Below, one piece after another: positions 11,224 to 46,560 of a DNA stretch of 64,000 nucleotides. A program made the position numbers and the translations under genes. Every line of letters starts with the position of its first letter. Positions within the stretch are counted from its first letter, which is position 1. The notes under the pieces are model-generated. The model had not been told where the DNA came from. It was given only the letters and a program-made list of their open reading frames with translations, and ran no database searches. This DNA comes from Candidatus Magasanikiibacteriota bacterium (GTDB lineage Bacteria; Patescibacteriota; Patescibacteriia; Magasanikbacterales; UBA922): the NCBI GenBank assembly GCA_003482855.1, contig DMXO01000003.1, forward strand, positions 16,275 through 80,274, written 5' to 3'.

Positions 11224-12276
11224 CTACAAATACTTCCCCTTCCCCTCTCCTTCTATTTTTTTAAGTAACTCTTTCACACGTGGTACATCATCTTTGTGAC
11301 ACACAAGAAGAGCATCCTTGGTATTTACAACCATCATACCCTTGAGTCCAATAGTCGCTACGAGACGATGGTCATCTTCATTCAAGATAAAACAATCTTT
11401 TGACTCAAGATCTATGACATGACCTTTTTCAAAATTTTTCTGTTCATCACTCACAAGTGCCTCTTTGAGCGCATAGAGTGTGCCGGGATCGCTCCATCCC
11501 AAATCAACTTTAAGTACAATAGCTTGGTCTCCATACACATGCTCAACAATTGCGTTATCAAATGATATGGCTTCAAGATGCTCGTATGCGGTATGTATGT
11601 CACTGACACCGCTCACAATATCTTCAAGTGCCATATACATCTTGGGCTGGTACTTACGATACAAGCCCAATACAAAATCGATATCGAATACAAAATAACC
11701 AGGATTCCACATCCACTCACCCGATTCAAACATTTCTTGGCAACGCAATAATTCGGGTCTGTATTTCCACTCTTTGAATGCATACAGTTCTCCATCTATT
11801 CGTTCGCCAAGACGTATCCATCCCAAATTATGATTTGCAAAACGAGGTTGTTCACCCAAAAATACAAATCTATGTGGATTTTCTTGTATCAAATTCTCTG
11901 CCTTCGTGAGTGCATCACGAAAACGATCAGGGTGACGCATAAAATGATCCGCCCATAACATAGCTATAGTACCAGAAATACCCTGTTGTTTGAGCCGCAT
12001 GAGGGAGAGACCAACCGCAGCAGCCAAATCTCGTCGTGCCGGTTCTCCAAAAATATTCGCTCGCGGTACTTCAGGTACTTGCCCACATACCATATTTACA
12101 TATCTATTGTTGGTAGAAATATAAATATGTTTGAAGCCAAATTCTTCAATACGTTCAACAGCCATCTGCAACGTCGATTTATTATCTTTTAATACTTCAA
12201 ACTGTTTGGGGCTCGACTCACGGCTCAGTGGCCAGAGACGTGTGCCAGATCCACCAGCGAAGATGAGAATAGTCAT
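11224..12276 (-). CDS. mannose-1-phosphate guanylyltransferase (NDP-sugar pyrophosphorylase)
   Basis: GGSGTRLWPLSR nucleotidyltransferase signature. Confidence 0.75.
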   Translation of the reverse strand: MTILIFAGGSGTRLWPLSRESSPKQFEVLKDNKSTLQMAVERIEEFGFKHIYISTNNRYVNMVCGQVPEVPRANIFGEPARRDLAAAVGLSLMRLKQQGISGTIAMLWADHFMRHPDRFRDALTKAENLIQENPHRFVFLGEQPRFANHNLGWIRLGERIDGELYAFKEWKYRPELLRCQEMFESGEWMWNPGYFVFDIDFVLGLYRKYQPKMYMALEDIVSGVSDIHTAYEHLEAISFDNAIVEHVYGDQAIVLKVDLGWSDPGTLYALKEALVSDEQKNFEKGHVIDLESKDCFILNEDDHRLVATIGLKGMMVVNTKDALLVCHKDDVPRVKELLKKIEGEGKGKYL

Positions 12277-12329
12277 AAAATAAACAAAAATAAATTACAA
12301 AATATAAATGTGCACAAAATCCGAATATC

Positions 12330-12419
12330 GAAATACGAAACAATAATAAAATTCTAAATTCAAATGTTTAAAACTTTTTGAAAATTCGAATTTGTTTCGA
12401 ATTTCGTATTTCGAATTTT
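12330..12419. repeat. imperfect inverted repeat (ccgaatatcgaaatacgaaacaa / ttgtttcgaatttcgtatttcgaa)
   Basis: Shared tcgaaatacgaaa units in the intergenic region. A related aatttcgaaatt palindrome lies at 13025-13040. Confidence 0.35.
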
Positions 12420-12433
12420 TGTCCTTATATATT

Positions 12434-13024
12434 TTAAAAAAATAATCCGATAACATTATACATCGGCTGGGTCACATACTCCAATAACCATGGTGCACCA
12501 AGTGCAAATACAACTGCAAGGAATAAACCACCAACAATATCCCGAGGATAATGAACTCCCACATATACACGTCCATATGCCACGAGCATCGCAAGCACAA
12601 TCAACAAACCGCTAAGTACTAAAGGCGCACCAATATGTATGGTAATCAAAGCAAAAATAAAGGAAAAAATAGTATGATCAGATGGAAACGATTTCCACGA
12701 CTCGACAGGCTTCAAAATATATTTTATATGAGGAAATTCGATATATGGACGTGGATGTCTCCACAAAAGTGCGATGCCATAACTCAATATTTCTGCCAAA
12801 ACTAACCCAGTCAAAAGCAATTTGATGAAACCAACAAATAAATCGGGTTGTTCATCCACGAGAGAAAAGGCACCCCACCACATAGCCATGATACCAATAA
12901 TATAAATAAGCCAATGTGCACAAAAATACATGAGGCCGTCGACCCATTTTCGTTTGCCAACTTGGGCATTTACTCTAAAAAATAATTTATGCGACCAGGA
13001 GAGCTTCATAATTTTTAATTTCAA
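12434..13024 (-). CDS. PAP2-family membrane phosphatase
   Basis: PSDHT and GVHYPRDIVGG (SRxxxxxHxxxD-like) motifs. Multi-TM. Confidence 0.75.
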   Translation of the reverse strand: MKLKIMKLSWSHKLFFRVNAQVGKRKWVDGLMYFCAHWLIYIIGIMAMWWGAFSLVDEQPDLFVGFIKLLLTGLVLAEILSYGIALLWRHPRPYIEFPHIKYILKPVESWKSFPSDHTIFSFIFALITIHIGAPLVLSGLLIVLAMLVAYGRVYVGVHYPRDIVGGLFLAVVFALGAPWLLEYVTQPMYNVIGLFF

Positions 13025-13040
13025 ATTTTGAATTTCGAAA

Positions 13041-14138
13041 TTATTTAATCCATCTAAGATAATTCTCTACAAATTCATCTAAATCCCCATTCAATACAGC
13101 CACATCATCTGTCGTTTCATAGCGCGTACGTAAATCTTTCACCATGTGATAGGGGTGTAAGACATATGATCTTATTTGGTTCCCCCATTCAGGACTTTTG
13201 TATTCGCCACGCAATTTGAGACGCTCTTCTTCTTCTTTTTCTTCCTGCAACTTTTGCAATTTTGATTTAAGAATTTTCAAAGCTGTTTCCTTATTTTGTA
13301 ATTGTGAACGTTCATTTTGACACTGTACTGTGATACCAGTAGGAATATGTACAATACGCACAGCCGAATATGTTGTATTTACACTCTGACCACCTTTGCC
13401 TCCTGACATGAATGTATCGATTCTCAAATCTTTATCTTCTATTTTCACTTCGTCCTCGTCCTCCATTTCAGGAATAACTTCTGTAAGTGCAAAAGAAGTA
13501 TGACGCATCTTCTCTGCATCAAAAGGAGAAATGCGTACGAGTCTATGTGTGCCATGTTCACTTTTGAGATGCCCATATGCATGATTTCCTTCTACACGAA
13601 ATATAATTGATTTTATACCCGCTTCTTGCCCCTTTGTCTCATCAATAATAGTTACTTTCCATTTCTTATTTTCACAATATTTCATATACATACGCAAAAG
13701 CATCTCTGCCCAATCCTGTGCTTCAGTACCGCCCGACCCTGCATGAATCGAAACAATCGCGTTATTTCTATCATGTTTGCCATCCATGAGCGTGTTGAAT
13801 TCCAACTTGCCAACTCGATTACTTACCAACACATATTGTTTCTCAATCTCCTCACGCAAATTTACATCCTTGTCCACCTCATCCATACCCGCCATTTCCA
13901 GCAAATCTCCAACTTCCTTGTTCAGCTTTTCCCATTCACTAATTTCATTTTGCAAGTCTCCCATTTCTTTGCTTATCTTTGTTGCTGTTTCTGAATTATC
14001 CCAAAAACCTGGCTCACTAATTACTTGAGCAAGTTTTTTCACCTTTTCCTGTTTTTCATCCAATTTCAAAATCACACACATATCTGCGAGTTTTTTGGCT
14101 AAATCTTCTAGAGATTTTACTAAATCGTGCATGTCCAT
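13041..14138 (-). CDS. prfB: peptide chain release factor 2
   Basis: GGQ motif (SGGKGGQSVNTT) and the RF2-specific SPF motif. Uninterrupted frame with no programmed frameshift. Confidence 0.9.
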   Translation of the reverse strand: MDMHDLVKSLEDLAKKLADMCVILKLDEKQEKVKKLAQVISEPGFWDNSETATKISKEMGDLQNEISEWEKLNKEVGDLLEMAGMDEVDKDVNLREEIEKQYVLVSNRVGKLEFNTLMDGKHDRNNAIVSIHAGSGGTEAQDWAEMLLRMYMKYCENKKWKVTIIDETKGQEAGIKSIIFRVEGNHAYGHLKSEHGTHRLVRISPFDAEKMRHTSFALTEVIPEMEDEDEVKIEDKDLRIDTFMSGGKGGQSVNTTYSAVRIVHIPTGITVQCQNERSQLQNKETALKILKSKLQKLQEEKEEEERLKLRGEYKSPEWGNQIRSYVLHPYHMVKDLRTRYETTDDVAVLNGDLDEFVENYLRWIK

Positions 14139-14261
14139 ATGGTGAGTTTACCTAGCACAGCCTGAGGGATGAAAACGGAGACGAGCATGTCCGTAATTCG
14201 AAATATGATATATATAATTCTACGTTAGTTAAGGCAAAAATACAATACTAAATACTATTTT

Positions 14262-14352
14262 TTGGCTAAAATTGGCAAAAAAATATGTTTTAAAAAAAAT
14301 CTCATAAAATAAAAAATACTTATTAAAAAAATTGGCTAAAATTAGCAAAAAA
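14262..14352. promoter_or_regulatory. two ~21-bp direct repeats (ttggctaaaattggcaaaaaa / ttggctaaaattagcaaaaaa) 70 bp apart, upstream of the consensus promoter
   Basis: Read directly. Candidate regulator-binding sites or UP-element-like sequences. Confidence 0.4.
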
Positions 14353-14368
14353 CTAACACGAGAAAACC

Positions 14369-14397
14369 TTGACAAAACAGTTTATTTATGATATAAT
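14369..14397 (+). promoter_or_regulatory. sigma70-type promoter with perfect -35 TTGACA, 17-bp spacer and perfect -10 TATAAT
   Basis: ttgaca at 14369-14374 and tataat at 14392-14397. Drives a ~275-nt hairpin-containing leader and the GC-rich ORF at 14673. Confidence 0.55.
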
Positions 14398-14672
14398 TTG
14401 CTGTTTTGTACCTTACAAAAACTGTCTTCGTGTCCACCAATATATGTATATCTTAACGTGTACATATACTGGTTGGCACAAACAGTCAACCTCAAACACT
14501 GTACAACCTGTCTCAGACAGGTTCACATATCACCCAGATCAAACCACCTTTGTGGCGAAGGTGGTGCAGATATCATAAAGAGCGAGAGTTCGAGTGCCTG
14601 ACTGACCCTACTCAACAGTTCCTACACAAACCCAGTCTCCATTGGTGAGACAGCTACGAAAGAGAGGATACG

Positions 14673-17015
14673 ATGAGCGGAACGACGACGCGCAAGATCG
14701 CCGGCATCGCCGGCAAGGACTGGCTCCTCAACGTGACCGGGATGAAGGTGTTCGGCGACTCGCTCCTCACGGAGCGGGTGCGCAAGGAACTCTCCCGGTT
14801 CGCCTGGGTCCTCCTGATCCAGTTGATCGTGGACCTCTGGGTCTGGACCACCCTGTGGTCCTACGCCCTCCCGAGCTCGATGTTCTGGTCCCTGTCGCTC
14901 GGAACGATGTTCGCCCTGTTGATCTTCAAGGTCGACCAGGGCGTCATCACCCACGACACGTCGAGTGACGAGGGACGCCTCCGGCCGATCATCGGCCGAG
15001 CGATCCTCCTGCTCATGATCGCGCTCATCACGGCCCTCGCCGTGGAACTCGGCGTGTTCGCCACGGCCATCGATCGGCGACTCGACCAGCGCGAGAACAT
15101 CGCGGTCACGGAGCTCAAGGAGACCGAGATCGCGAAGATCAACAGCAAGTACCAGAAGCTGATCGACCAGGCGCGTGCCGACGGCACCGAGGCCACGTCC
15201 CACGCCCAGACCACGGGGCAGCAGGACGTTGAGTCCTACAAGTCCCAGCGTGCCACCGAGCGTGCCTCAATCGAGGCCCGGTACGCGGCCGACAAGAAGG
15301 CCATCGAGGACCAGATCGCCGCCGGCGACCAGCGCATCCTCGACGAGACCAAGGGCCGTTTCACCGGTCGCTCGGGCATCGGCCCCATGGTCATCGCGCT
15401 CCAGCAGGAGAAGGAGAAGGCTCTCGGTGAGCTCTCCAAGATCCGCCAGGCCGAGGCCACCGAACTCGGCACCTTCGACACCACTACCGCGGCCTCCATC
15501 GCCTCGCTCGAGAGCAAGCGCGACACCGACACGGCCACGGCCACGACGACCAACAAGGCGAGGGTCGAAGGCCTCCAGATGCAGTGGGAAGACAAGGTGC
15601 AGGAGATCCGCGAGATGAATCGCGACCGATTCGCCACCATCTACGGTGGTGACTGGAAGCAGGATCGCGGCTTCCTCACCAGGTTCCACGCGCTCCAGGA
15701 GATGGCGAGCGAGGACTCGATCATCCAGTGGCTCATCTGGGGCACCCGGCTCCTGATGATGATCATCGGTATGGCCATCCTCATCCTCAAGCTCAGCTCC
15801 AGCCGTGAGTTCGTCAACTACTTCTCCTACCGGGCGCAGATCGCCGCCGGCAACCCCGACGCCACCGCCCACGCGGAAGCAGAAGGGTACAACGACCCCA
15901 CCAACCGCAAGGCACTCGCCTGGCCACCCGAGACCCTCGAGGTCATGGGTGCCCTGCACATGGCGCGACTCAACCTGTGCAAGGCCTGGCGTGCCTGGTG
16001 GCAGCAGGCCGGTGAGACCTGCAAGCAGGACGCAAAGACTGGCCTCTGCCGGTCCCGCGATGACGTCGCCACCCAGCTCCGGCTGGCGTGGAACTTGACC
16101 GTCCAGCCCATGGTCGACGCCCTGGCCACGGCCGAGCGTGAGGTCGAGCTCAACGGCCGCAGCATCCCCCGCTGGGATGAAACGCGCTACCCCGAGCCCG
16201 ACCCCCGCAACATGACCGAACCGTGGGACCTGTCCGACACGCAGCTCCGCGGTCTCGGATGGGAGGACCCCTCCGAGAAGGTCCGTGATGCCCAGGAGGC
16301 CGTGATTCAGCTGCCGGGTCTCTACCGGCAGATCATCGACTTCATGGCGACCATGGACATGGGAACCCGGCGGCAGATCCGCACTGCTCCGGCCACCTCC
16401 CTCCTCGTGCTCGAGGATCGGCGCTTCCAGTTCTACCACACGCAGATGCGTAGGGTCCTGGAGGACATGGAAGATGCCGAGCGCAAGATCGCTTCGACCG
16501 GTCGGCACATGCCCGAGCGTCCCCGCTCCCTGCGGGAGACGGACCAGATCCGGGAGTGCTGGCGGCTCGACCGCCGCACGCTCCGTGACTGGGGCTGGCA
16601 GCAGGACGTGCCCCGCAGCACGCCCCCTGCTCCGGCTCCTGTCCGGACCCCGGCTCCCACGACCACCTCGGCCCCGACCGCCACGCCCCCGGCCCCGCCG
16701 GTGAACACCGTCTCGACGTCGCTGCCCGAGGTCGACATGTCCCTGACCGGTGACGACGCGACCCGCGTCGACATCCGGCCCCCGGCCGAGCTGGCCGACG
16801 AGACGGACGACGAACCCGAATTCGACGTCGGGGCCGATCTCTCGGAAGCCGACACGAACCCGGGGTCGATCCACCCCGACCTCGTCGCCATCCAGACTGA
16901 GGGCGGCAACGGACAGACGCCGCCGGTCAACGGCGATGGCTTCGGCCAGGACGACATGGCGTTCTTCCGCAGCGAGCCGGAGACGGCCACGCCCGGCGAC
17001 AAGCTGGCCAACTAG
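14673..17015 (+). CDS. GC-rich membrane protein (N-terminal TM helices, central coiled coil, third TM, acidic Pro/Thr-rich C-terminal tail); DUF4407-like architecture
   Basis: Codon third positions are almost all G/C in this frame only. AGAGAGGA SD 5 nt upstream. Composition differs sharply from the flanking DNA. Confidence 0.7.
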   Translation: MSGTTTRKIAGIAGKDWLLNVTGMKVFGDSLLTERVRKELSRFAWVLLIQLIVDLWVWTTLWSYALPSSMFWSLSLGTMFALLIFKVDQGVITHDTSSDEGRLRPIIGRAILLLMIALITALAVELGVFATAIDRRLDQRENIAVTELKETEIAKINSKYQKLIDQARADGTEATSHAQTTGQQDVESYKSQRATERASIEARYAADKKAIEDQIAAGDQRILDETKGRFTGRSGIGPMVIALQQEKEKALGELSKIRQAEATELGTFDTTTAASIASLESKRDTDTATATTTNKARVEGLQMQWEDKVQEIREMNRDRFATIYGGDWKQDRGFLTRFHALQEMASEDSIIQWLIWGTRLLMMIIGMAILILKLSSSREFVNYFSYRAQIAAGNPDATAHAEAEGYNDPTNRKALAWPPETLEVMGALHMARLNLCKAWRAWWQQAGETCKQDAKTGLCRSRDDVATQLRLAWNLTVQPMVDALATAEREVELNGRSIPRWDETRYPEPDPRNMTEPWDLSDTQLRGLGWEDPSEKVRDAQEAVIQLPGLYRQIIDFMATMDMGTRRQIRTAPATSLLVLEDRRFQFYHTQMRRVLEDMEDAERKIASTGRHMPERPRSLRETDQIRECWRLDRRTLRDWGWQQDVPRSTPPAPAPVRTPAPTTTSAPTATPPAPPVNTVSTSLPEVDMSLTGDDATRVDIRPPAELADETDDEPEFDVGADLSEADTNPGSIHPDLVAIQTEGGNGQTPPVNGDGFGQDDMAFFRSEPETATPGDKLAN

Positions 17016-17129
17016 ACCAAGCGACGCCACAACGCAAGGTCTATAAAAACGTCCTCTGTGTGACTCACGCAACTACTGCGACACAGATTCAACATACTAG
17101 CCTCCCTACAGGCGTAGTCCCTACTTTCT

Positions 17130-17202
17130 CGTTTGTTTCTCAAACAAACGGTAGGATGACTCGACTAGGAAGGTTGTGCGATTTGCCCCAAACAAATCGC
17201 AC
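17130..17202. other. two adjacent perfect hairpins (cgtttgttt-ctc-aaacaaacg; gtgcgatttg-ccccaaa-caaatcgcac) in a mid-GC spacer
   Basis: 9- and 10-bp perfect stems read directly. Possible tandem terminators or a small structured RNA. Confidence 0.35.
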
Positions 17203-17244
17203 AGCACAGTGATCTTGAAAATATTTTCGAGATTAGTGTGTAAT

Positions 17245-17280
17245 AAAAAACTACTCAATTTGTGAGTAGTTTTTTATTTT
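17245..17280. terminator. bidirectional rho-independent terminator (aaaaaactactca-atttg-tgagtagtttttt)
   Basis: Stem flanked by A- and T-tracts, between the 3' ends of the convergent GC-rich gene and groEL. Confidence 0.6.
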
Positions 17281-17297
17281 AAAATGTTATCTTCTCT

Positions 17298-19022
<1,725 letters not shown>

Positions 19023-19034
19023 CTACCCAAGAAA

Positions 19035-19059
19035 GATCCCTCTCCGCCCTGGGCGGATC
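19035..19059. repeat. GC-rich palindrome (tccgccctgggcgga core) in the groEL-groES spacer, related to the uvrD/aroB in-frame elements
   Basis: Core tccgccc-t-gggcgga compared with tccgcctctggcgga in uvrD. Confidence 0.4.
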
Positions 19060-19074
19060 AGGATGACAGACTGT

Positions 19075-19350
19075 TTACTCTATCACCGCAATCACATCGT
19101 CATGGTTCAAAATCTTGTGTTCTACTCCATCAACATCCACTTCTTCTCCACCCCATTTTTTGAACAAAACTTTCATGCCAGCTTTCAAATCTAATCGAGA
19201 AAGTTTCTTACCATTGCCAAGGGCAATGATTTCTCCCTCCATCTTTTTTTCTTTGTCTACAGTGTCTGGTAATACAATGCCAGACTTAGTCACTTCTTCC
19301 TCCTTCATTGGTTTGACCAATATACGATTGCCGAGTGGTCTTATTGTCAT
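19075..19350 (-). CDS. groS: co-chaperonin GroES
   Basis: MTIRPLGNRILVKP... Start set at the internal Met (19348-19350), giving the canonical ~91 aa. Confidence 0.9.
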   Translation of the reverse strand: MTIRPLGNRILVKPMKEEEVTKSGIVLPDTVDKEKKMEGEIIALGNGKKLSRLDLKAGMKVLFKKWGGEEVDVDGVEHKILNHDDVIAVIE

Positions 19351-19378
19351 ACAAAATATATTAAAATTACTTATTAAT

Positions 19379-19405
19379 TTGTCACTCAATATTATTGAGT
19401 GCTAA
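19379..19405. promoter_or_regulatory. CIRCE operator (HrcA binding site): ttgtCACTC-N9-GAGTGCTAA
   Basis: Matches the consensus TTAGCACTC-N9-GAGTGCTAA with a 9-nt spacer. Lies ~30 nt upstream of the groES start and overlaps the predicted transcription start. Confidence 0.75.
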
Positions 19406-19415
19406 TAACATACAC

Positions 19416-19444
19416 ATATTACTATTACTCAAAAAAGGTGTCAA
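19416..19444 (-). promoter_or_regulatory. groESL promoter: -35 TTGACA, 17-bp spacer, -10 TAATAT (minus strand)
   Basis: Reverse complement of 19416..19444 reads ttgaca-ccttttttgagtaatag-taatat. Confidence 0.5.
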
Positions 19445-19498
19445 GAACCAAAAAATGTGGATATTTTTTAGGCCTCTTTTTTAAAGGTAAATAAAAAA

Positions 19499-19607
19499 CC
19501 CATCATAGGTAGCGGCTTGATGCGGCGACCGCAGATGAAGTTCGTGATGCCTGTCAGTAACACGACCTTCGGGCAAGCGCCGCTTCACGCATGCTACCTA
19601 TGATAGG
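19499..19607. other. GC-rich ~110-nt structured element closed by a 13-14 bp terminal stem (catcataggtagc / gctacctatgat); candidate ncRNA or small MITE
   Basis: A GC-rich block in an AT-rich spacer, containing internal hairpins (tgcgg-cga-ccgca; gaag-u-ucgug…cacga-c-cuuc with a UUCG loop). Confidence 0.3.
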
Positions 19608-19702
19608 TTCTTATGCATTGGGATTCCATTGTACCCTCAAATAGGAAACCTGTCAATTGGCTTATTTTAGCAAAATTTTTAATATTGGGGACAAACAGTG
19701 GA

Positions 19703-21088
19703 TTACCTGTTCAAATGATCTAATGTAAACCGACAAAATAGTCCCCAATATATCCCTGTTACAATTAAACCAATATATGACGAAAAGAGATAATGGTCAA
19801 ACATGGCTAAAATAAGATAAAAAAAACTAAAAATAGTCACCTTATAGAAAAATTGCATATTGTCGACAAACCAACCCATCCTCTTTTTTTTCTGTTGCAC
19901 GAAATAGTACAAAAAAACAATCATTGTCAAATACACACCTACTGCGAGGATACACCCCACCCAACCAACTTCGACAAGCAAGAGAAGCCACATGTTGTGG
20001 ACTGGCTGATATTCCCATCCGGGCCGAGTAGGATTAAGAGTATACAAAGCGTGCGTGTAATTACCTATGCCAGCACCATACCACGTATATATAGTAGACA
20101 ATTTAAATGACTCATCTACTGAGTCGACTCGCTCAGTAATGGATCTAACTTCAGTAATAGACTCTGGAGAAAAACGTGTTTGAAGCATGGGGGAAAAAAT
20201 GACCCCGAGCGAAAGAAAAAGACCGATAATAAAAATAAAATTTGAAGAAACAAAAAAATGTTTCCTAATATACAAACCATGCAAAAACATAATCATCAAA
20301 GCAAAACAAATGCCAATCAATGCGCTCCTGCTAAGGCTTACAAATAAACCAAATAATAAAATAGCAGAAATCAAAAATTGAAATGTATACTGATACCTCT
20401 TGGCGCATATACTTACTATAAACAAAGTGAAACCCCACACTAACGCCATACTCATATAACCACCAAATATATTCGGATGCGAAAAACTACCATATGCGCG
20501 CAGTACCCTGCCTATACTATCTGAAGCAACAATGGATGTACCTGCCTGCCACGCTACGTGAAGCGGTAATCCAAACCATTTAGAAACAAAAGTTTGTTGA
20601 AGAAAAAATTGAAATATGCCAAGTAATGCCGACGGCAAAGCCCCCATGAAAAACCAAAATCCAGACTGACGAAACGTGAGAGGACCTGTGAGTAATAACA
20701 GAAATATAAATATAGATTCCACAATATGAAGCGCTTGTTGCAAAGCAACATCTCTATCCCCTGCCCACATAATAGAGGCAAAACTCCACAGCACAAACAA
20801 TAATAAGGAAAACAAAAATAGTCTGTCAGTGGTAAATTTGAAATTTGTCCCGATTTGATCGGGATGAAATTTGAAATTTTTATGTTTGAATATCCACCCA
20901 ATAAATACAAAAATAATAACCCATAATAGTATCTCTGTGCCATAAAAGCCAAGTGTCCCATACTCCCACTTTACGCTATTTAAAAACTGCTCTTTCGTAA
21001 TCAAGACAGTCTGCCAAGGCAAAACAAATAAAAAAATACTCAAAAGAATTTTGAGTATGTCTTCAATTGTCCATCGGGGTAACGTCAT
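19703..21088 (-). CDS. O-antigen ligase/polymerase-family membrane protein (Wzy_C-like)
   Basis: Polytopic membrane protein with GSFSHPNIFGGY and SLSRSALIG motifs. Confidence 0.7.
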   Translation of the reverse strand: MTLPRWTIEDILKILLSIFLFVLPWQTVLITKEQFLNSVKWEYGTLGFYGTEILLWVIIFVFIGWIFKHKNFKFHPDQIGTNFKFTTDRLFLFSLLLFVLWSFASIMWAGDRDVALQQALHIVESIFIFLLLLTGPLTFRQSGFWFFMGALPSALLGIFQFFLQQTFVSKWFGLPLHVAWQAGTSIVASDSIGRVLRAYGSFSHPNIFGGYMSMALVWGFTLFIVSICAKRYQYTFQFLISAILLFGLFVSLSRSALIGICFALMIMFLHGLYIRKHFFVSSNFIFIIGLFLSLGVIFSPMLQTRFSPESITEVRSITERVDSVDESFKLSTIYTWYGAGIGNYTHALYTLNPTRPGWEYQPVHNMWLLLLVEVGWVGCILAVGVYLTMIVFLYYFVQQKKKRMGWFVDNMQFFYKVTIFSFFYLILAMFDHYLFSSYIGLIVTGIYWGLFCRFTLDHLNR

Positions 21089-24757: not shown

Positions 24758-24843
24758 AAAAAAAGTAGCATCTTCATGATGCTACTTACATATACATAAT
24801 ACCATACACAAGACATTTTGTCAAATCTATGTGCACACAATGA

Positions 24844-28855: not shown

Positions 28856-29115
28856 ATGTGAATGACTGAATTTTAGGTTATAGGTTATAGGTATTAGGTA
28901 GATTAGATTTTTAAATCAGAATATATAATACTTATCTAAATACCTATAACCTAATACCTTCTAATAATATCATAATCTTGACATTGGTTCCAAAAGATGT
29001 TTATATAAAATACTTTGTTCTTTATATACATCGTTGGTGCTGTACCTATTTATTTATACAAATAGATATATACGGCATCAACGACGCGGGCGATGACCCG
29101 CACAGGAGGGATCTC

Positions 29116-29826
29116 ATGACCAGACAGTTCAGGAAGGGCCGGCCTCGGCGAAAGAAGGGGCAGCAGGCCCCGACGGGGACGAGGCCGAAGGAGTGGCGCA
29201 AGAAGTACACGAACGACGAAGATGACGTCGATGACAACGAGGTGAAGGGGTGGATTGGCTTCGCCCTGCTCGCCTTCGTCATCATCGTGATCGCTGTGTT
29301 CGTGTTGGTCGTCTTCGTCTCGTGCGCCATCGAGGGCGCCGAGTGGCAGGATGGCACCCTGGACACCGACGACCCCCCCACGATCGGAGAGGTCGTCGAG
29401 TCGGACAGCAGTGTCCGCCACTGCACGGGGGGCCTCCCATTCTGCGACTGCGAGACCGACGCCGACTGCCCGGAGGAGTACATCTGCAGCGATCGCTACG
29501 GCTCGCTCTCGTGCGTCGGGCCCGAGTGCACGCCCGACGATGAGGAGGGCATATACAGCGACTGCGACGACGACGAGCGCTGCAGCTTCGACCGCTGCTA
29601 CGAAGGGCGGTGCTTCTACACCCAGTGGACGCACATCCCGGAGTGCTACGGTGAGTCGTCGTGCTACGTGGACGACGACTGCGAAGCGCCGCCCGGCTTC
29701 GAGCCGGGTCCATGCGTCGCGTACGGGTGCTTCCTCCCGAGCGGCGTCTGTGGCGCCGTCGTGCTCGACGGGGAGTCGTGCTCCGCCGGGCTCGGGGTGT
29801 GCGACCCCGATGGCGTGTGCCGCTGA
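29116..29826 (+). CDS. GC-rich single-pass membrane protein with basic N-terminal tail and acidic Cys-rich (CxxDxDC…GxC) extracellular repeats
   Basis: Start set at the ATG preceded by AGGAGGG (29104-29110). The ORF-track start at 28978 lies in AT-rich non-coding DNA. About 30 Cys residues in 4 repeat units. G/C-dominated third positions. Confidence 0.6.
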   Translation: MTRQFRKGRPRRKKGQQAPTGTRPKEWRKKYTNDEDDVDDNEVKGWIGFALLAFVIIVIAVFVLVVFVSCAIEGAEWQDGTLDTDDPPTIGEVVESDSSVRHCTGGLPFCDCETDADCPEEYICSDRYGSLSCVGPECTPDDEEGIYSDCDDDERCSFDRCYEGRCFYTQWTHIPECYGESSCYVDDDCEAPPGFEPGPCVAYGCFLPSGVCGAVVLDGESCSAGLGVCDPDGVCR

Positions 29827-29922
29827 CCATGTCCGGCAAGCATAAAAAACTCAAGGAGACGCGATCGTGGGGGCGATCGCATGGAGTTCAGTGTCCCGAT
29901 GTATATCGGGATAGTGAAATAC

Positions 29923-29957
29923 AAAAATCCGCTGAAAAAGCGGATTTTTGTATTTTG
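29923..29957. terminator. bidirectional rho-independent terminator (aaaaatccgc-tgaaaaa-gcggattttt)
   Basis: 10-bp stem flanked by A- and T-tracts. Confidence 0.6.
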
Positions 29958-29963
29958 CATTTA

Positions 29964-39469: not shown

Positions 39470-39624
39470 AGTTGTAAAACAAATAAATTACTTCCCAGCC
39501 TAAGCAGGGAATCAAACATCATGTAGTAATTTCAAACTCGACTTTGTTTGTTTTACAACACTCTTTTTGATATATATATACTATCACAAAACACGCGATA
39601 TGTCAACCTCTCAGCCAATGGACA

Positions 39625-41455: not shown

Positions 41456-42523
41456 TCAGTCCTCCTCTTCCTCCTCATCCTCGAAGCCGATCAGCAGTTC
41501 GCCGACGATGTTCGTGGAGAGGAACATCTGGATCCGATCCGGGTGCTTGGGGTGCATGGCGATGGCCTGGCGGAACTTGATGTCCCCCATAGCCGGCGTG
41601 AGGCTCTCCAGCGAGAGCGCCCCGGCCGCCTTGGCCTTCGCACCGAGCTCGTACCGACTCAGGACGACGCGCCCGTCCTCGAACGGGGAGAGGATGCCCA
41701 CGTGGATGCCCGCGTCGGTCGCGGCCTTGATCGCGTCGATCCACGAGTAGTTGGCGTCCCCCATGTCCCACGGCCGATCCGGGATGTTGCCCGCGCCCTT
41801 GGCCTCAAGGATCACGCCCTTGATGCGACCAGCCTTGACCATATCCATCAGGACGTAGGGCGGGGTGTCAGCGGACACCATGAGCGACACTACGTGCTGC
41901 TCAAACTTGGTGTCGAGGCGGAGGCCCTGGACCGCGGCGACGGGGTCCTTGCGATGGACGCCGTCCATGATCATGATCTTCGGGAAGGCTTTGGCCACAG
42001 GGTGACGTCCGGGCGTGTGGAACGCCGCGAAGTCGGCCTCGTTGCGCTTGCGGACACGCGAGCCGTCGAGCACGTCGCCGAGGCAGACGCTGTAGACGCC
42101 CACGATGCCGTTCCGCAGGAAGGACTTGCCGACGCGCATGGTGTTCGCCACCTGCATGGCCACATCCGAGCCCGACTCCTCCTTGGTCATCTGCGCGCCG
42201 ATCACGAAGACCGGCTTCTGCAGCGACAGCTTGAAGAGCATGGCCAGGAACGCACAGGACTCCGCCAGGGAATCCGTGCCATGCAGGATGATGAACATCT
42301 CGTGGTCGTCGTAGGCCGCCGCGATCATCTGGCCCATCACGACCCGGTCGTTGTGCATGACGTTGGTCGAGTCCTGCCGTTGCGGGAAGTCCTCGAGCGT
42401 CAGCTCGATGCCCTTGGGGAGTACGATCCCCTCAAGCAGCTCGGCCGCGGACTTCGCGGGATGCAACGGATCCCCGACCATCCCCAGAGTTCCTCCCGTG
42501 TTAAGAACGTATGCTTTCTTCAT
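41456..42523 (-). CDS. ansA: L-asparaginase (type I / GatD-like asparaginase family), GC-rich
   Basis: TGGTLGM and HGTDSL signatures. Start set at the ATG preceded by GGAAGGAA; the ORF-track start is a TTG. G/C-dominated third positions. Confidence 0.8.
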   Translation of the reverse strand: MKKAYVLNTGGTLGMVGDPLHPAKSAAELLEGIVLPKGIELTLEDFPQRQDSTNVMHNDRVVMGQMIAAAYDDHEMFIILHGTDSLAESCAFLAMLFKLSLQKPVFVIGAQMTKEESGSDVAMQVANTMRVGKSFLRNGIVGVYSVCLGDVLDGSRVRKRNEADFAAFHTPGRHPVAKAFPKIMIMDGVHRKDPVAAVQGLRLDTKFEQHVVSLMVSADTPPYVLMDMVKAGRIKGVILEAKGAGNIPDRPWDMGDANYSWIDAIKAATDAGIHVGILSPFEDGRVVLSRYELGAKAKAAGALSLESLTPAMGDIKFRQAIAMHPKHPDRIQMFLSTNIVGELLIGFEDEEEEED

Positions 42524-42605
42524 CTTCGGTTCCTTCCACAATCAAAGGCTCTTCACCTCCACACTCCCACACTCGCGGGTGTGCGCTCGGTGTTATCGAC
42601 CCTCC

Positions 42606-42755: not shown

Positions 42756-43373
42756 CTAACCACTAAACATAATTTTCCGTATAAGTTCGCTAAGATTATG
42801 GTTGTGGATATTGTTGAAACGAAATTCCATTTCTTTGAAGTACAACAACACATATTTTTTATTGATCCCATTATATTTTTTTAATTTGGTTTTCACATAT
42901 GTCCAAAACATTTTTGTTTCATCAACTAAAATCTTATTCGTCAATTTCGTTTTGTACGGTTTGGTGTTATAATAGGTATGTCCATTCAAAATTAAAGCAT
43001 CATATATTTTAAAACTTTGTGTATCTCGCACATCAAATGGCACAATATGAGTACGCATGATCTGTTTTAATTTCAATGCTTCTATATCGTTTACTGCACC
43101 TGTAAAAATAGTATTATCGAGCTTGCAAATACCTATTATTGATACTAGTGATTCTATATTTTTTGTTAGATACACATACGGAAATTTCTTATCACACTCA
43201 CAGGCAATAGCAGTCCGAATGAAAAAATAAATACGATCTACGGTGTGACGATTTATTTTTATTATCTGACTCGCTTTGGACGCAGGAACTTCCAATACAA
43301 ACAAATCAATTATTTTTTCAATTTGTCTATTAGAAAGTTTGCTGTTCTTTATTAATCGATGTTTCATACACAC
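42756..43373 (-). CDS. IS1595-family(-like) transposase
   Basis: N-terminal LSNRQIEKIIDLFVLEVPASKASQIIKINRHTVDRIYFFIR resembles the IS1595/ISXO2-type HTH region, with a DDE-like ...VDET... segment. Adjacent to the GC-rich island. Confidence 0.45.
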   Translation of the reverse strand: MCMKHRLIKNSKLSNRQIEKIIDLFVLEVPASKASQIIKINRHTVDRIYFFIRTAIACECDKKFPYVYLTKNIESLVSIIGICKLDNTIFTGAVNDIEALKLKQIMRTHIVPFDVRDTQSFKIYDALILNGHTYYNTKPYKTKLTNKILVDETKMFWTYVKTKLKKYNGINKKYVLLYFKEMEFRFNNIHNHNLSELIRKIMFSG

Positions 43374-46463: not shown

Positions 46464-46488
46464 AATTCAAAATCTAAAATTATTCTAG

Positions 46489-46560
46489 CTCCCCCGGTAG
46501 GACTCGAACCTACAACATCTGCATTAACAGTGCAGTGTTCTACCATTGAACTACAGGGGA
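46489..46560 (-). tRNA. tRNA-Asn (anticodon GTT)
   Basis: Manual cloverleaf: acceptor TCCCCTG/CGGGGGA, D-arm GTTC/GAAC, anticodon stem CTGCA/TGCAG with loop CTGTTAA, T-arm GTAGG-TTCGAGT-CCTAC. CCA not encoded. Confidence 0.85.

What the first reader, a model, noticed from the sequence alone, without database searches (positions are those of the whole stretch)
14139..17297. GC-rich 780-aa membrane/coiled-coil gene with Pro/Thr-rich tail in an AT-rich genome, behind a textbook sigma70 promoter, direct repeats and a structured 275-nt leader
From ~14600 to 17020 the DNA switches to very high GC, with third codon positions almost all G/C in one frame. The encoded protein has 2-3 TM helices, a long coiled coil and an Actinobacteria-style PAPTPAP tail. 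It is preceded by a perfect TTGACA-17-TATAAT promoter, two 21-bp direct repeats 70 bp apart, leader hairpins (aacctgtc-tca-gacaggtt; ccacctt-tgtggcg-aaggtgg) and an SD. Host genes in this window lack SD motifs, while every GC-rich gene retains one. This points to recent horizontal acquisition, or to a chimeric assembly. The host/symbiont association this might imply is speculative. The protein's function is unknown.
Basis: partly seen in the sequence, partly recalled or inferred. Interest (0 to 1): 0.7.

Follow-up and report, generated by a model that had tools for sequence, protein, structure and literature searches.

The report
Conserved GC-rich gene cassette in AT-rich CPR
A very GC-rich membrane-protein gene sits in an AT-rich candidate-phyla-radiation (CPR) bacterial genome, but it is neither an assembly error nor a fresh foreign import: related genomes carry the same kind of GC-rich gene, often at the same spot, framed by conserved control and RNA-structure elements.

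Summary
ORF 14673-17015 (780 aa, Pfam DUF4407) has GC 0.67 and GC3 0.90, against GC3 0.29-0.36 for its neighbours. It lies behind a 12/12 TTGACA-17-TATAAT promoter, two 24-nt direct repeats, a roughly 270-nt hairpin-rich leader and a GAGGA Shine-Dalgarno (SD) site.

The interpretation (recent transfer or chimera) is not supported. The window is a 'Candidatus Magasanikbacteria' MAG. Independent assemblies of relatives carry GC-rich family members at the same prfB | groEL-groES-wzy locus. In 12 of 12 loci examined, this two-domain family has higher GC3 than its neighbours. Synonymous sites between the window and its 55%-identical counterpart are saturated, yet GC3 stays at 0.90 and 0.74.

The promoter, the leader and a 150-nt three-hairpin 3' trailer are conserved across lineages. 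In the trailer, 22 of 39 pairs show compensatory changes, and there is no Rfam match. The leader and trailer are better conserved than synonymous sites.

The gene tree disagrees with the host-gene relationships, so cassettes are also exchanged or sorted.

Best reading: an old, self-contained expression cassette whose coding GC-richness is actively maintained. The cause of that maintenance and the protein's function remain unresolved.

The parts
14262..14355 (+). Two 24-nt direct repeats (14262-14285 and 14332-14355) with core TTGGCTAAAAT, 14-107 bp upstream of the -35 hexamer. I read them as an operator-like site for a transcription factor.
   Evidence: 92% identical, 70-bp spacing; 2 exact core matches against 0.10 expected; the same or a one-off motif lies near the family promoter in L001, L008, L010, L011 and L016. 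Protein binding is inferred, not shown.
14369..14397 (+). Sigma-70 promoter: TTGACA, 17-nt spacer, TATAAT, with a TG extended -10. It is part of the conserved module CTTGACAAAA..TGnTAnAnT.
   Evidence: 12/12 match; the module is invariant in 8 copies from 6 lineages; this is the genome's own promoter type. Activity was not tested.
14403..14672 (+). 5' leader of about 270 nt. It contains a 5'-proximal hairpin (about 14404-14420), a long imperfect hairpin (about 14423-14493), hairpin 14507-14525, hairpin 14545-14565 with loop UUUGUGGCGAA, and the SD site GAGGA at 14664-14668.
   Evidence: the first 140 nt or so are about 88% identical to L001; 11 of 31 pairs show compensatory changes across 4 lineages; the UUUGUGRCGAAG-loop hairpin recurs before both cistrons in L001. 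The transcription start is inferred from the -10 position.
14673..17015 (+). CDS, 780 aa, GC 0.67, GC3 0.90. It encodes a DUF4407 module (TM1-3, a roughly 95-residue antiparallel coiled-coil hairpin, TM4), a family-specific C-terminal domain of two helical hairpins each followed by a PxWP..DPR..PW..GWxDP loop (about 380-645), and a disordered Pro/Thr-rich acidic tail (646-780).
   Evidence: identical to the NCBI protein DCS29_01440 of a 'Candidatus Magasanikbacteria bacterium' MAG.
17016..17243 (+). Structured 3' trailer. The conserved core is 17098-17246: a junction-closed hairpin, hairpin H2 (17174-17202), and the sequence-conserved hairpin H3 (CACAGUGAUCUU 17205-17216 with GAGAUUAGUGUG 17229-17240).
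   Evidence: z = -9.5, and the MFE structure equals the centroid; 93% of cells are paired against 33-41% in slid controls, and 22 of 39 pairs are compensatory; covariance-model hits lie on the + strand only, in 4 lineages and 5 distinct copies. Conserved G-U pairs fix the strand; no Rfam match.
17244..17279 (.). Intrinsic terminator AAAAAACUACUCA-loop-UGAGUAGUUUUUU. It is A/U-flanked, so it is probably bidirectional and shared with convergent groEL, whose stop codon begins at 17298 on the - strand.
   Evidence: the same AAAAAACUAC..GUAGUUUUUU design follows H3 in L001, L008 and L011. The simple terminator scan did not list it because the stem is GC-poor.

Best explanation
This is a long-standing, self-contained expression cassette of Magasanikbacteria-like CPR bacteria. 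It is not a fresh import.

Shown:
- The unit consists of operator-like TTGGCTAAAAT repeats, a native-type extended -10 sigma-70 promoter, a roughly 270-nt hairpin-rich leader, an SD site, a GC3-rich ORF, a three-hairpin trailer and a terminator.
- Homologous promoter, leader and trailer modules flank GC-rich family members in several independent lineages, at the same prfB | groEL locus in the closest ones.
- The GC excess is confined to coding sequence and is a property of the whole protein family: 12 of 12 loci, with neighbour GC3 ranging from 0.26 to 0.81.
- Synonymous sites between lineages are saturated.

Inferred:
- The ancestral cassette already carried a GC-rich ORF.
- Some force acting on the coding region keeps it GC-rich against the genome's AT-biased mutation. 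I think the most likely force is selection on the mRNA or its codons. The rival is repeated re-seeding by recombination with GC-rich alleles.
- Such an mRNA is strongly structured and poor in AU-rich sites, so it would need an SD site to initiate. Host genes start on AU-rich, SD-less leaders.
- The 5'-proximal and 3' hairpins most plausibly protect and regulate the transcript, giving a long-lived, slowly or conditionally translated message.
- The product is a four-TM envelope protein with a roughly 14-nm coiled-coil stalk and a Trp-rich repeat domain. It evolves fast, so I guess a cell-surface or host-contact role.
- Cassette contents have also been shuffled between lineages.

How likely: about 0.85 that this is neither a recent one-off transfer nor a chimera. 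About 0.55 for the full statement that the GC-richness is old and actively maintained. About 0.3 for the specific mRNA-stability or translation-gating mechanism.
For: (1) Synteny and independent assemblies. L008/L009 read NTP-transferase, PAP2, prfB, [GC-rich mini gene, DUF4407 family gene, lipoprotein], groEL, groES, wzy, matching window 11224-21088. L001-L003 and L007 match on the groEL side.

(2) Family-wide GC3 excess, gene versus neighbours: window .90/.33, L001 .74/.26, L008 .76/.30, L010 .72/.32, L011 .51/.34, L013 .60/.49, L014 .78/.68, L015 .93/.81, L016 .84/.56, L017 .73/.55, L018 .79/.55, L019 .80/.38.

(3) Saturation. At conserved amino acids, the fraction of identical codons between window and L001 equals the expectation for independent sites, both in groEL (.50 observed.45 expected) and wzy (.43.44) and in the DUF4407 gene (.53.50).

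(4) Non-coding modules are better conserved than synonymous sites. The leader is 75% identical overall and about 88% over its first 140 nt. The trailer covariance model scores 120-154 bits in 4 lineages.

(5) The GC excess stops at the ORF. The upstream spacer has GC 0.28 and the terminator-to-groEL spacer 0.20. The spacer between two GC-rich ORFs in L001 has GC 0.32.

(6) The promoter is of host type and is conserved in 8 copies.

(7) No close donor was found. Among 1.84 billion cluster representatives, the best hit beyond the 55% homologue is about 31-33% identical, and the named relatives are CPR MAGs. I found nothing on phages, plasmids or viral contigs, and no PADLOC or PHROG match.

(8) SD sites are present on 7 of 12 family genes but on only 1 of 11 host genes in the relatives.
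Against: - Gene and host relationships disagree. By groEL (85%), wzy (57%) and prfB (78%) the window is closest to L008, but its DUF4407 protein is 32% identical to L008's and 55% to L001's. At least one replacement, or paralogue sorting, happened at this locus. That weakens the argument 'vertical descent, therefore amelioration should be complete'.
- The size of the GC3 excess varies a lot between lineages (logit shift 0.45-2.9). A mix of transfers of different ages would give the same pattern.
- Three unrelated GC-rich genes in the window share GC3 of about 0.90 and correlated codon usage (r = 0.81-0.90). A common recent donor would also produce this.
- I have no expression, half-life, tRNA or read-mapping data.
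- The 12 loci are not all independent. L016 and L018 share a gene context, and the host taxa of L010-L019 are not established.
- Topology, surface location and function of the protein are guesses. Fold searches returned only generic coiled coils.
Confidence: 0.55

Rival explanations
1. Recombination hot spot with recurrent re-seeding. The prfB-groEL spacer, and the family's cassettes in general, are repeatedly overwritten with GC-rich alleles from GC-rich donors. These could be GC-rich CPR such as the L014 or L015 genomes, or GC-rich hosts. Entry would be by homologous recombination through the conserved promoter, leader and trailer modules or within the resident ORF. On this view the GC-richness reflects the age of the last replacement, not selection.
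For: - The gene relationships disagree with the host-gene relationships.
- Cassette contents differ between lineages: a mini gene and a 627-aa gene in L001, a lipoprotein in L008, neither in the window.
- Trailer types are shuffled. L008's DUF4407 gene carries the trailer type that follows the 627-aa gene in L001.
- The GC3 excess is variable.
- Family members do exist in GC-rich genomes (L014, L015).
- Codon usage of the window gene correlates with L015 EF-G at r = 0.82.
Against: - No donor closer than about 33% identity, other than L001, exists among 1.84 billion representatives.
- The GC-rich genomes examined lack the AT-rich leader and trailer modules needed for flank-mediated exchange. 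The covariance model found none in L013-L016.
- Even in GC-rich genomes the gene still exceeds its neighbours (L014, L015).
- There are no mobility genes at the locus.
Confidence: 0.27
2. GC-biased gene conversion at a hyper-recombining, diversifying locus. Frequent allelic exchange of a fast-evolving surface protein drives GC3 up in every host background, without any selection on the mRNA.
For: - The GC3 excess is family-wide and independent of host GC content.
- There is evidence of exchange or sorting at the locus.
- The protein diverges fast compared with groEL (55% against 80% identity).
- The leader and trailer have intermediate GC (0.44-0.46), above the spacers.
Against: - The effect (GC3 0.33 rising to 0.90) is far larger than the few-percent shifts attributed to gBGC in bacteria (my own knowledge: Lassalle et al. 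2015).
- The excess stops sharply at ORF ends, and the adjacent spacers are the most AT-rich DNA in the region (GC 0.16-0.28).
- The four population samples of the L001 lineage are identical over 4.6 kb, so there is no sign of ongoing exchange there.
Confidence: 0.1
3. A single recent horizontal acquisition by the window's lineage from a GC-rich donor such as an actinobacterium.
For: The gene has atypical GC3 and codon usage, an SD site and a PT-rich 'actinobacterial-style' tail. Two other GC-rich genes in the window have the same codon signature.
Against: - GC-rich homologues lie at the same locus in relatives, with homologous native-type promoter, leader and trailer.
- No donor was found.
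- The family's closest members are all from CPR or metagenome sources.
Confidence: 0.04
4. Chimeric assembly or binning artefact that joins GC-rich reads from another organism into an AT-rich contig.
For: The GC switches are abrupt. The sequence is a MAG contig.
Against: - The same architecture was assembled independently in at least five projects and lineages (ENA ERZ964682, ERZ27060442, ERZ1283812, ERZ794998; GenBank FLOH01000628; GCA_002869205.1; JGI 3300025669).
- The GC switches coincide with a start-codon/SD site and a stop codon inside one coherent transcription unit.
- There are four such ORF-bounded islets in 64 kb.
Confidence: 0.01

Closest known systems
Pfam DUF4407 (PF14362) membrane/coiled-coil proteins
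   Same: Residues 37-377 match the model well above its gathering score. The layout is TM helices, a long helical hairpin and another TM helix.
   Different: This subfamily adds a roughly 270-residue C-terminal domain of repeated helical hairpins with the motif PxWP..DPR..PW..GWxDP (55 cluster representatives at E < 1e-30). It seems restricted to CPR-like metagenomic lineages. Its genes are GC-enriched relative to their genomes. DUF4407 itself has no known function, and only 3 papers in the library mention it, all in passing.
Horizontally acquired genomic islands that ameliorate towards host composition (Lawrence and Ochman model; my own knowledge)
   Same: The GC content, codon usage and translation-initiation signal are atypical compared with the flanking genes.
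   Different: The locus has no integrase, tRNA or transposase. The promoter is native. The island is present at the syntenic locus in relatives. It shows no amelioration even though synonymous sites are saturated.
Hypervariable surface-structure loci with persistently deviant GC between conserved flanks (O-antigen rfb and capsule loci with a JUMPStart/ops leader; my own knowledge)
   Same: Housekeeping flanks are conserved. The contents are variable and swappable, and their composition deviates from the genome over long periods. A conserved long 5' leader precedes the genes.
   Different: The deviation here is towards high GC in a low-GC genome. Each unit is a single gene with its own promoter and a conserved structured 3' trailer. 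I did not test for an ops element or an RfaH/LoaP-type antiterminator.
mRNA 5' stabiliser hairpins (ompA-type) and 3' stem-loop barriers to exonucleases (my own knowledge)
   Same: A hairpin starts within a few nucleotides of the predicted 5' end. Several very stable hairpins precede the terminator.
   Different: There is no sequence similarity and no Rfam family. H3 is conserved in sequence as well as in structure, which suggests a specific binding partner rather than a generic barrier.
Integron gene cassettes with structured attC sites
   Same: ORFs are arranged in series, each followed by a conserved imperfect hairpin element, and the cargo varies.
   Different: Every cassette here has its own promoter and terminator. 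G-U pairs indicate an RNA rather than single-stranded DNA. I did not look for an integrase beyond the locus itself.
Codon-usage 'complementarity' between AT-rich Patescibacteria and their GC-rich hosts (bioRxiv 10.64898/2026.06.21.733656)
   Same: The lineage is the same kind of organism. In this window, host-like GC-rich codons stand against an AT-adapted genome.
   Different: The preprint describes genome-wide parasite-versus-host differences. It does not describe GC-rich genes inside the parasite genome.

Membership tests
Pfam DUF4407 (PF14362) | HMM match above the curated gathering score | tested here: met
   85.9 bits against a cut-off of 31.3, E = 3.9e-24, residues 37-377 matching profile positions 11-285 of 297.
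Pfam DUF4407 (PF14362) | Membrane helices flanking a long coiled-coil region | tested here: met
   four hydrophobic windows. AlphaFold helices 101-197 and 209-285 form a hairpin (pLDDT 87).
Recently acquired genomic island | Atypical base composition and codon usage | tested here: met
Recently acquired genomic island | Absent from the syntenic site in related genomes | tested here: not met
   GC-rich family members occupy the prfB | groEL site in the L008/L009 and L001 lineages.
Recently acquired genomic island | Mobility signatures at the borders (integrase or transposase, tRNA target, flanking direct repeats) | tested here: not met
   there are no such genes between prfB and groEL. The only tRNA is at 46488-46560. 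The direct repeats both lie upstream of the promoter and do not flank the island.
Recently acquired genomic island | An identifiable close donor homologue | tested here: not met
   the best non-syntenic relative scores 409 bits (about 31-33% identity); nothing in phages, plasmids or viral contigs.
Assembly chimera | The junctions are unique to one assembly | tested here: not met
   several independent assemblies show the same AT/GC junction architecture.
Assembly chimera | Clipped or mispaired reads, or a coverage step, at the junctions | not testable with these tools
   No read data were available.
Any Rfam RNA family (leader or trailer) | Covariance-model match at or near the gathering score | tested here: not met
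   only a tRNA in the whole window; at E <= 1 only sub-threshold chance hits (sR2, MCS4, mir-4515).
Integron cassette array | Promoterless cassettes expressed from a common Pc promoter | tested here: not met
   each cassette has its own consensus promoter.
Integron cassette array | An IntI tyrosine recombinase adjacent to the array | not tested
   Only the genes from prfB to wzy and the three GC-rich genes were annotated.
Known anti-phage defence systems (PADLOC) and phage protein families (PHROGs) | HMM match | tested here: not met

The most novel reading that the evidence does not exclude
The GC-rich, SD-bearing ORFs form a dedicated class of genes in AT-rich parasitic CPR bacteria, and their host-like codon usage has a function. 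They would be translated efficiently only when GC-codon-reading tRNAs are available, for example tRNAs imported with host RNA during feeding (bioRxiv 10.64898/2026.06.21.733656). Alternatively, they would be delivered to and expressed in the GC-rich host. On this reading, codon composition together with the conserved leader and trailer RNAs acts as a host-contact switch for envelope and effector proteins.
Probability: 0.07. Interest if true: 0.95.

Novelty: new variant of a known kind. Interest (0 to 1): 0.68.

Why it matters
- Compositional outliers are routinely read as recent transfers or as contamination and are filtered out of MAGs. Here a whole CPR protein family stays GC-rich inside AT-rich genomes over divergences that saturate synonymous sites. 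It is expressed from native promoters and framed by two RNA elements I could not find described (no Rfam match). If the GC-richness is maintained by selection, this is a clean natural case for studying selection on coding GC content, mRNA structure or codon choice in minimal, uncultivated parasites.
- The cassette would also mark a set of probably host-interaction genes.
- The leader and trailer motifs can be searched for directly, and covariance model R1 is a starting point.
- As a practical caution, GC-based contig cleaning would wrongly remove these genes.

Tried and rejected
- Word-indexed protein searches returned only the window protein and the 55% homologue, even when I supplied a trimmed 17-sequence alignment. 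The family was recovered with the exhaustive HMMER search and direct contig look-ups instead.
- Exact-pattern scans for trailer hairpin H3 found only one true locus. The genome collection gave a chance hit in a Bacteroidales contig. The metagenome collection gave L007, which is the L001 population, plus two chance hits, L005 and L006. The viral collection gave nothing. The pattern was too strict: L008 has GAGGTTAGTGT.
- The leader and trailer sequences do not recur at the window's other GC-rich islets. Those islets have their own promoter, hairpin and terminator layout.
- I found no evidence for a phage, plasmid or defence origin.
- A polymorphism analysis of L001, L003 and L007 had no variable sites to work with.
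- Literature searches for GC-rich genes or islands in CPR/Patescibacteria found no description of this phenomenon.
- I rejected overprinted antisense genes, because the long - strand ORFs follow from GC3 of 0.9. I also rejected integron cassettes, because each unit has its own promoter.

Full report
OBSERVATION

The window is about 37% GC. Between about 14650 and 17000 the GC content is 0.60-0.81, with sharp edges. ORF 14673-17015 (+, 780 aa) has GC1/2/3 = 0.63/0.47/0.90. Its neighbours prfB, groEL, groES and wzy have GC3 of 0.29-0.36. Third positions in the ORF are 53% C, 38% G, 6% T and 4% A. GC3 is uniform along the gene at 0.88-0.95, including the lineage-specific tail.

Upstream elements:
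- A perfect TTGACA-17-TATAAT promoter with a TG extended -10 lies at 14369-14397.
- Two 24-nt direct repeats lie 70 bp apart at 14262-14285 and 14332-14355. Their core TTGGCTAAAAT occurs nowhere else in the window, against 0.10 expected.
It folds better than its shuffles (z = -3.6).
- GAGGA sits 4 nt before the ATG. Almost all other ORFs in the window lack an SD-like motif, and the two other GC-rich genes have one.

Region 17016-17243 is extremely structured (z = -9.5, and the MFE structure equals the centroid). It ends in an A/U-flanked terminator shared with convergent groEL. The long antisense ORFs are by-products of the high GC3.

WHAT THE PROTEIN IS

Pfam DUF4407 matches residues 37-377 (85.9 bits against a cut-off of 31.3). 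Hydropathy gives four TM segments.

An AlphaFold model of residues 30-645 has mean pLDDT 87.4. It shows:
- three TM helices;
- a roughly 95-residue antiparallel helical hairpin, with a conserved G-x-S-G-x-x-G-x-G-P turn at its tip;
- a fourth TM helix;
- a C-terminal domain made of two helical hairpins, each followed by a PxWP..DPR..PW..GWxDP loop (consensus).

The last 135 residues are Pro/Thr-rich, acidic and not conserved.

WHERE IT COMES FROM

The protein is identical to DCS29_01440 of a 'Candidatus Magasanikbacteria bacterium' MAG, on a 135-kb contig.

An exhaustive HMMER search of 1.84 billion cluster representatives found 218 relatives, 55 of them at E < 1e-30. Most of these share both domains. 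The few that carry names are CPR MAGs, for example 'Candidatus Parcubacteria bacterium'. Apart from one 55%-identical protein, the closest relative is about 31-33% identical. I found nothing on phages, plasmids or viral contigs.

COMPARATIVE GENOMICS: THE CENTRAL RESULT

(i) The 55% homologue. It lies on contigs from four separate metagenome assemblies (L001, L002, L003, L007), which are identical over their shared 4.6 kb. It sits next to groEL-groES-wzy, as in the window. Its GC3 is 0.74 in a genome with GC3 of about 0.26. Two more GC-rich genes flank it: a 186-aa 'mini DUF4407' without the coiled coil at L001 1572-2132 (mis-called in the database), and a 627-aa protein.

(ii) L008/L009 (GCA_002869205.1 and an ENA contig). 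They reproduce the window's gene order on both sides: NTP-transferase, PAP2, prfB, then the island, then groEL, groES, wzy. The island is a GC-rich trio of a mini gene (GC3 0.69), a family gene (0.76) and a lipoprotein (0.89), in a genome with GC3 of about 0.30.

(iii) All loci together. In every locus I could retrieve, 12 of 12, the family gene has higher GC3 than its neighbours. Neighbour GC3 ranges from 0.26 to 0.81 (table).

(iv) Saturation. At conserved amino acids, the fraction of identical codons between window and L001 equals the expectation for independent sites. This holds in host genes (groEL .50 observed.45 expected; wzy .43.44) and in the DUF4407 gene (.53.50). In a simple two-rate amelioration model with an equilibrium GC3 of about 0.3, one synonymous substitution per site per lineage would leave under 10% of the initial GC3 excess. 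That step is my inference. The observed excess is 0.4-0.6.

(v) The excess is confined to coding sequence. The upstream spacer has GC 0.28, the terminator spacer 0.20, and the spacer between two GC-rich ORFs in L001 0.32.

CONSERVED NON-CODING MODULES

- Promoter. The module CTTGACAAAA..TGnTAnAnT is invariant in eight copies from six lineages. It is of the genome's own type, with 7 matches in the window against 0.72 expected.
- Operator-like motif. TTGGCTAAAAT or a one-off variant lies near the family promoter in L001, L008, L010, L011 and L016.
- Leader. Its first 140 nt or so are about 88% identical between window and L001. Across four lineages, a 5'-proximal hairpin and a 26-bp hairpin are kept, with 11 of 31 pairs compensatory.
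- Trailer. The core at 17098-17246 aligns with five distinct copies in four lineages. 93% of cells are paired against 33-41% in slid controls. 22 of 39 pairs have compensatory changes against 1-3 in the controls. No shuffle out of 500 reached the observed values. Covariance model R1 finds it only on the + strand, only downstream of GC-rich cassette genes, and not elsewhere in the window. Conserved G-U pairs show that it works as a + strand RNA.
- Hairpin H3 (CACAGUGAUCUU with GAGRUUAGUGUG) is conserved in sequence as well as structure, which suggests a specific partner.
- Neither the leader nor the trailer matches Rfam.

COMPLICATION

Host genes place the window closest to L008 (groEL 85%, wzy 57%, prfB 78%), with L001 further away (groEL 80%, wzy 46%). 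The DUF4407 proteins show the opposite pattern: window-L001 55%, window-L008 32%.

Trailer types are shuffled as well. L008's family gene carries the trailer type that follows the 627-aa gene in L001.

So the cassettes have been exchanged, or ancestral paralogues were lost differentially. This keeps a recurrent-exchange model alive. It also limits how far the saturation argument can be pushed.

INTERPRETATION

Two readings are effectively excluded:
- Chimeric assembly, because independent assemblies show the same junction architecture.
- A one-off recent transfer, because GC-rich homologues sit in homologous native cassettes in relatives.

The best-supported reading is an old, modular expression cassette whose ORFs are kept GC-rich. 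The cause is not settled. The options are:
- Selection on the coding region, acting on mRNA structure or stability or on codon-dependent translation. I favour this one. The effect is limited to ORFs, it is family-wide, it also applies to unrelated cargo genes in the same cassettes, and it comes with an SD site and strongly structured transcript ends.
- Repeated replacement by GC-rich alleles.
- GC-biased gene conversion.

A 2026 preprint provides context. It reports that a cultivated Patescibacteria parasite imports host RNA, and that AT-rich parasites and their GC-rich hosts have complementary codon usage (bioRxiv 10.64898/2026.06.21.733656). That makes host-like codons inside the parasite genome particularly intriguing. 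I did not test any link.

The protein's role is a guess. A fast-evolving envelope protein with a 14-nm stalk might be involved in surface or host contact.

NOVELTY AND SCORE

The protein is a new subfamily of a known domain of unknown function. The leader and trailer are RNA motifs I could not find described. The persistence of ORF-limited GC-richness across a CPR gene family also appears undescribed in the searchable literature.

I rate it a new variant of a known kind, with interest 0.68. It is a solid and surprising comparative pattern, but the mechanism is unresolved and there are no expression data.

Noticed in passing
window 29116-29826 (+), with a promoter near 28978 and hairpins plus terminator at 29830-29960: A second GC-rich islet. 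It encodes a 236-aa Cys-rich single-TM protein with GC3 0.90 and an AGGAGG SD site. It has its own TTGACA promoter and a structured 3' end. I found no Pfam, PADLOC or PHROG match. Its layout matches the DUF4407 cassette, but the leader and trailer sequences are different.
   Followed up: partly
window 41456-42541 (-): A third GC-rich islet. It encodes a 361-aa type-I asparaginase (PF00710 and PF17763) with GC3 0.89, followed by a long hairpin and a terminator. Its codon usage correlates with the other GC-rich genes at r = 0.81-0.88.
   Followed up: partly
window about 1180-1480: A roughly 300-bp GC-rich stretch (GC about 0.60) with no codon periodicity in any frame and no Rfam hit. It could be a non-coding RNA or a decayed GC-rich gene.
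   Followed up: partly
window 42756-43373 (-): A 205-aa AT-rich ORF directly beside the asparaginase islet. By eye its N-terminus resembles IS1595/ISXO2-type transposases. I did not test this.
   Followed up: no
window, genome-wide (for example 19628-19656, 24796-24824, 39578-39606, all - strand): Host promoters follow TTGACA-N14-TGnTAnAnT (7 matches against 0.72 expected), and host genes almost never have an SD motif. The lineage therefore seems to combine strong extended -10 promoters with SD-independent initiation.
   Followed up: partly
L001 1572-2132 (+); L008 5330-5890 (+): A 'mini DUF4407' gene (186 aa) is the first cistron of the cassette in two lineages and is absent from the window. 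The L001 copy keeps the TM helices of the family and lacks the coiled coil. The two minis are only 24% identical, and only the L001 copy was compared with the family by eye. In L001 the database gene calls (1502-1975 on + and 1977-2144 on -) are in the wrong frame.
   Followed up: partly
L011 9552-9780: Two tandem copies of the family promoter module (CTTGACAAAACCTCTAAAATRTGCTATAMT), with a TTGGCTAAAAT motif between them, follow the DUF4407 trailer and precede further GC-rich genes. This suggests the modules duplicate within a genome.
   Followed up: partly
L016 5309-7171 and L018 2474-4288: In two lineages with roughly 49% GC, the family gene lies downstream of a TraG/VirD4-like coupling ATPase. 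In L016 a small double zinc-ribbon ORF sits between them.
   Followed up: no
L008 4975-5050: Tandem ACGAAAT(A/T)TACGAAAT repeats lie between prfB and the cassette promoter in the Parcubacteria relative. They are absent from the window.
   Followed up: no
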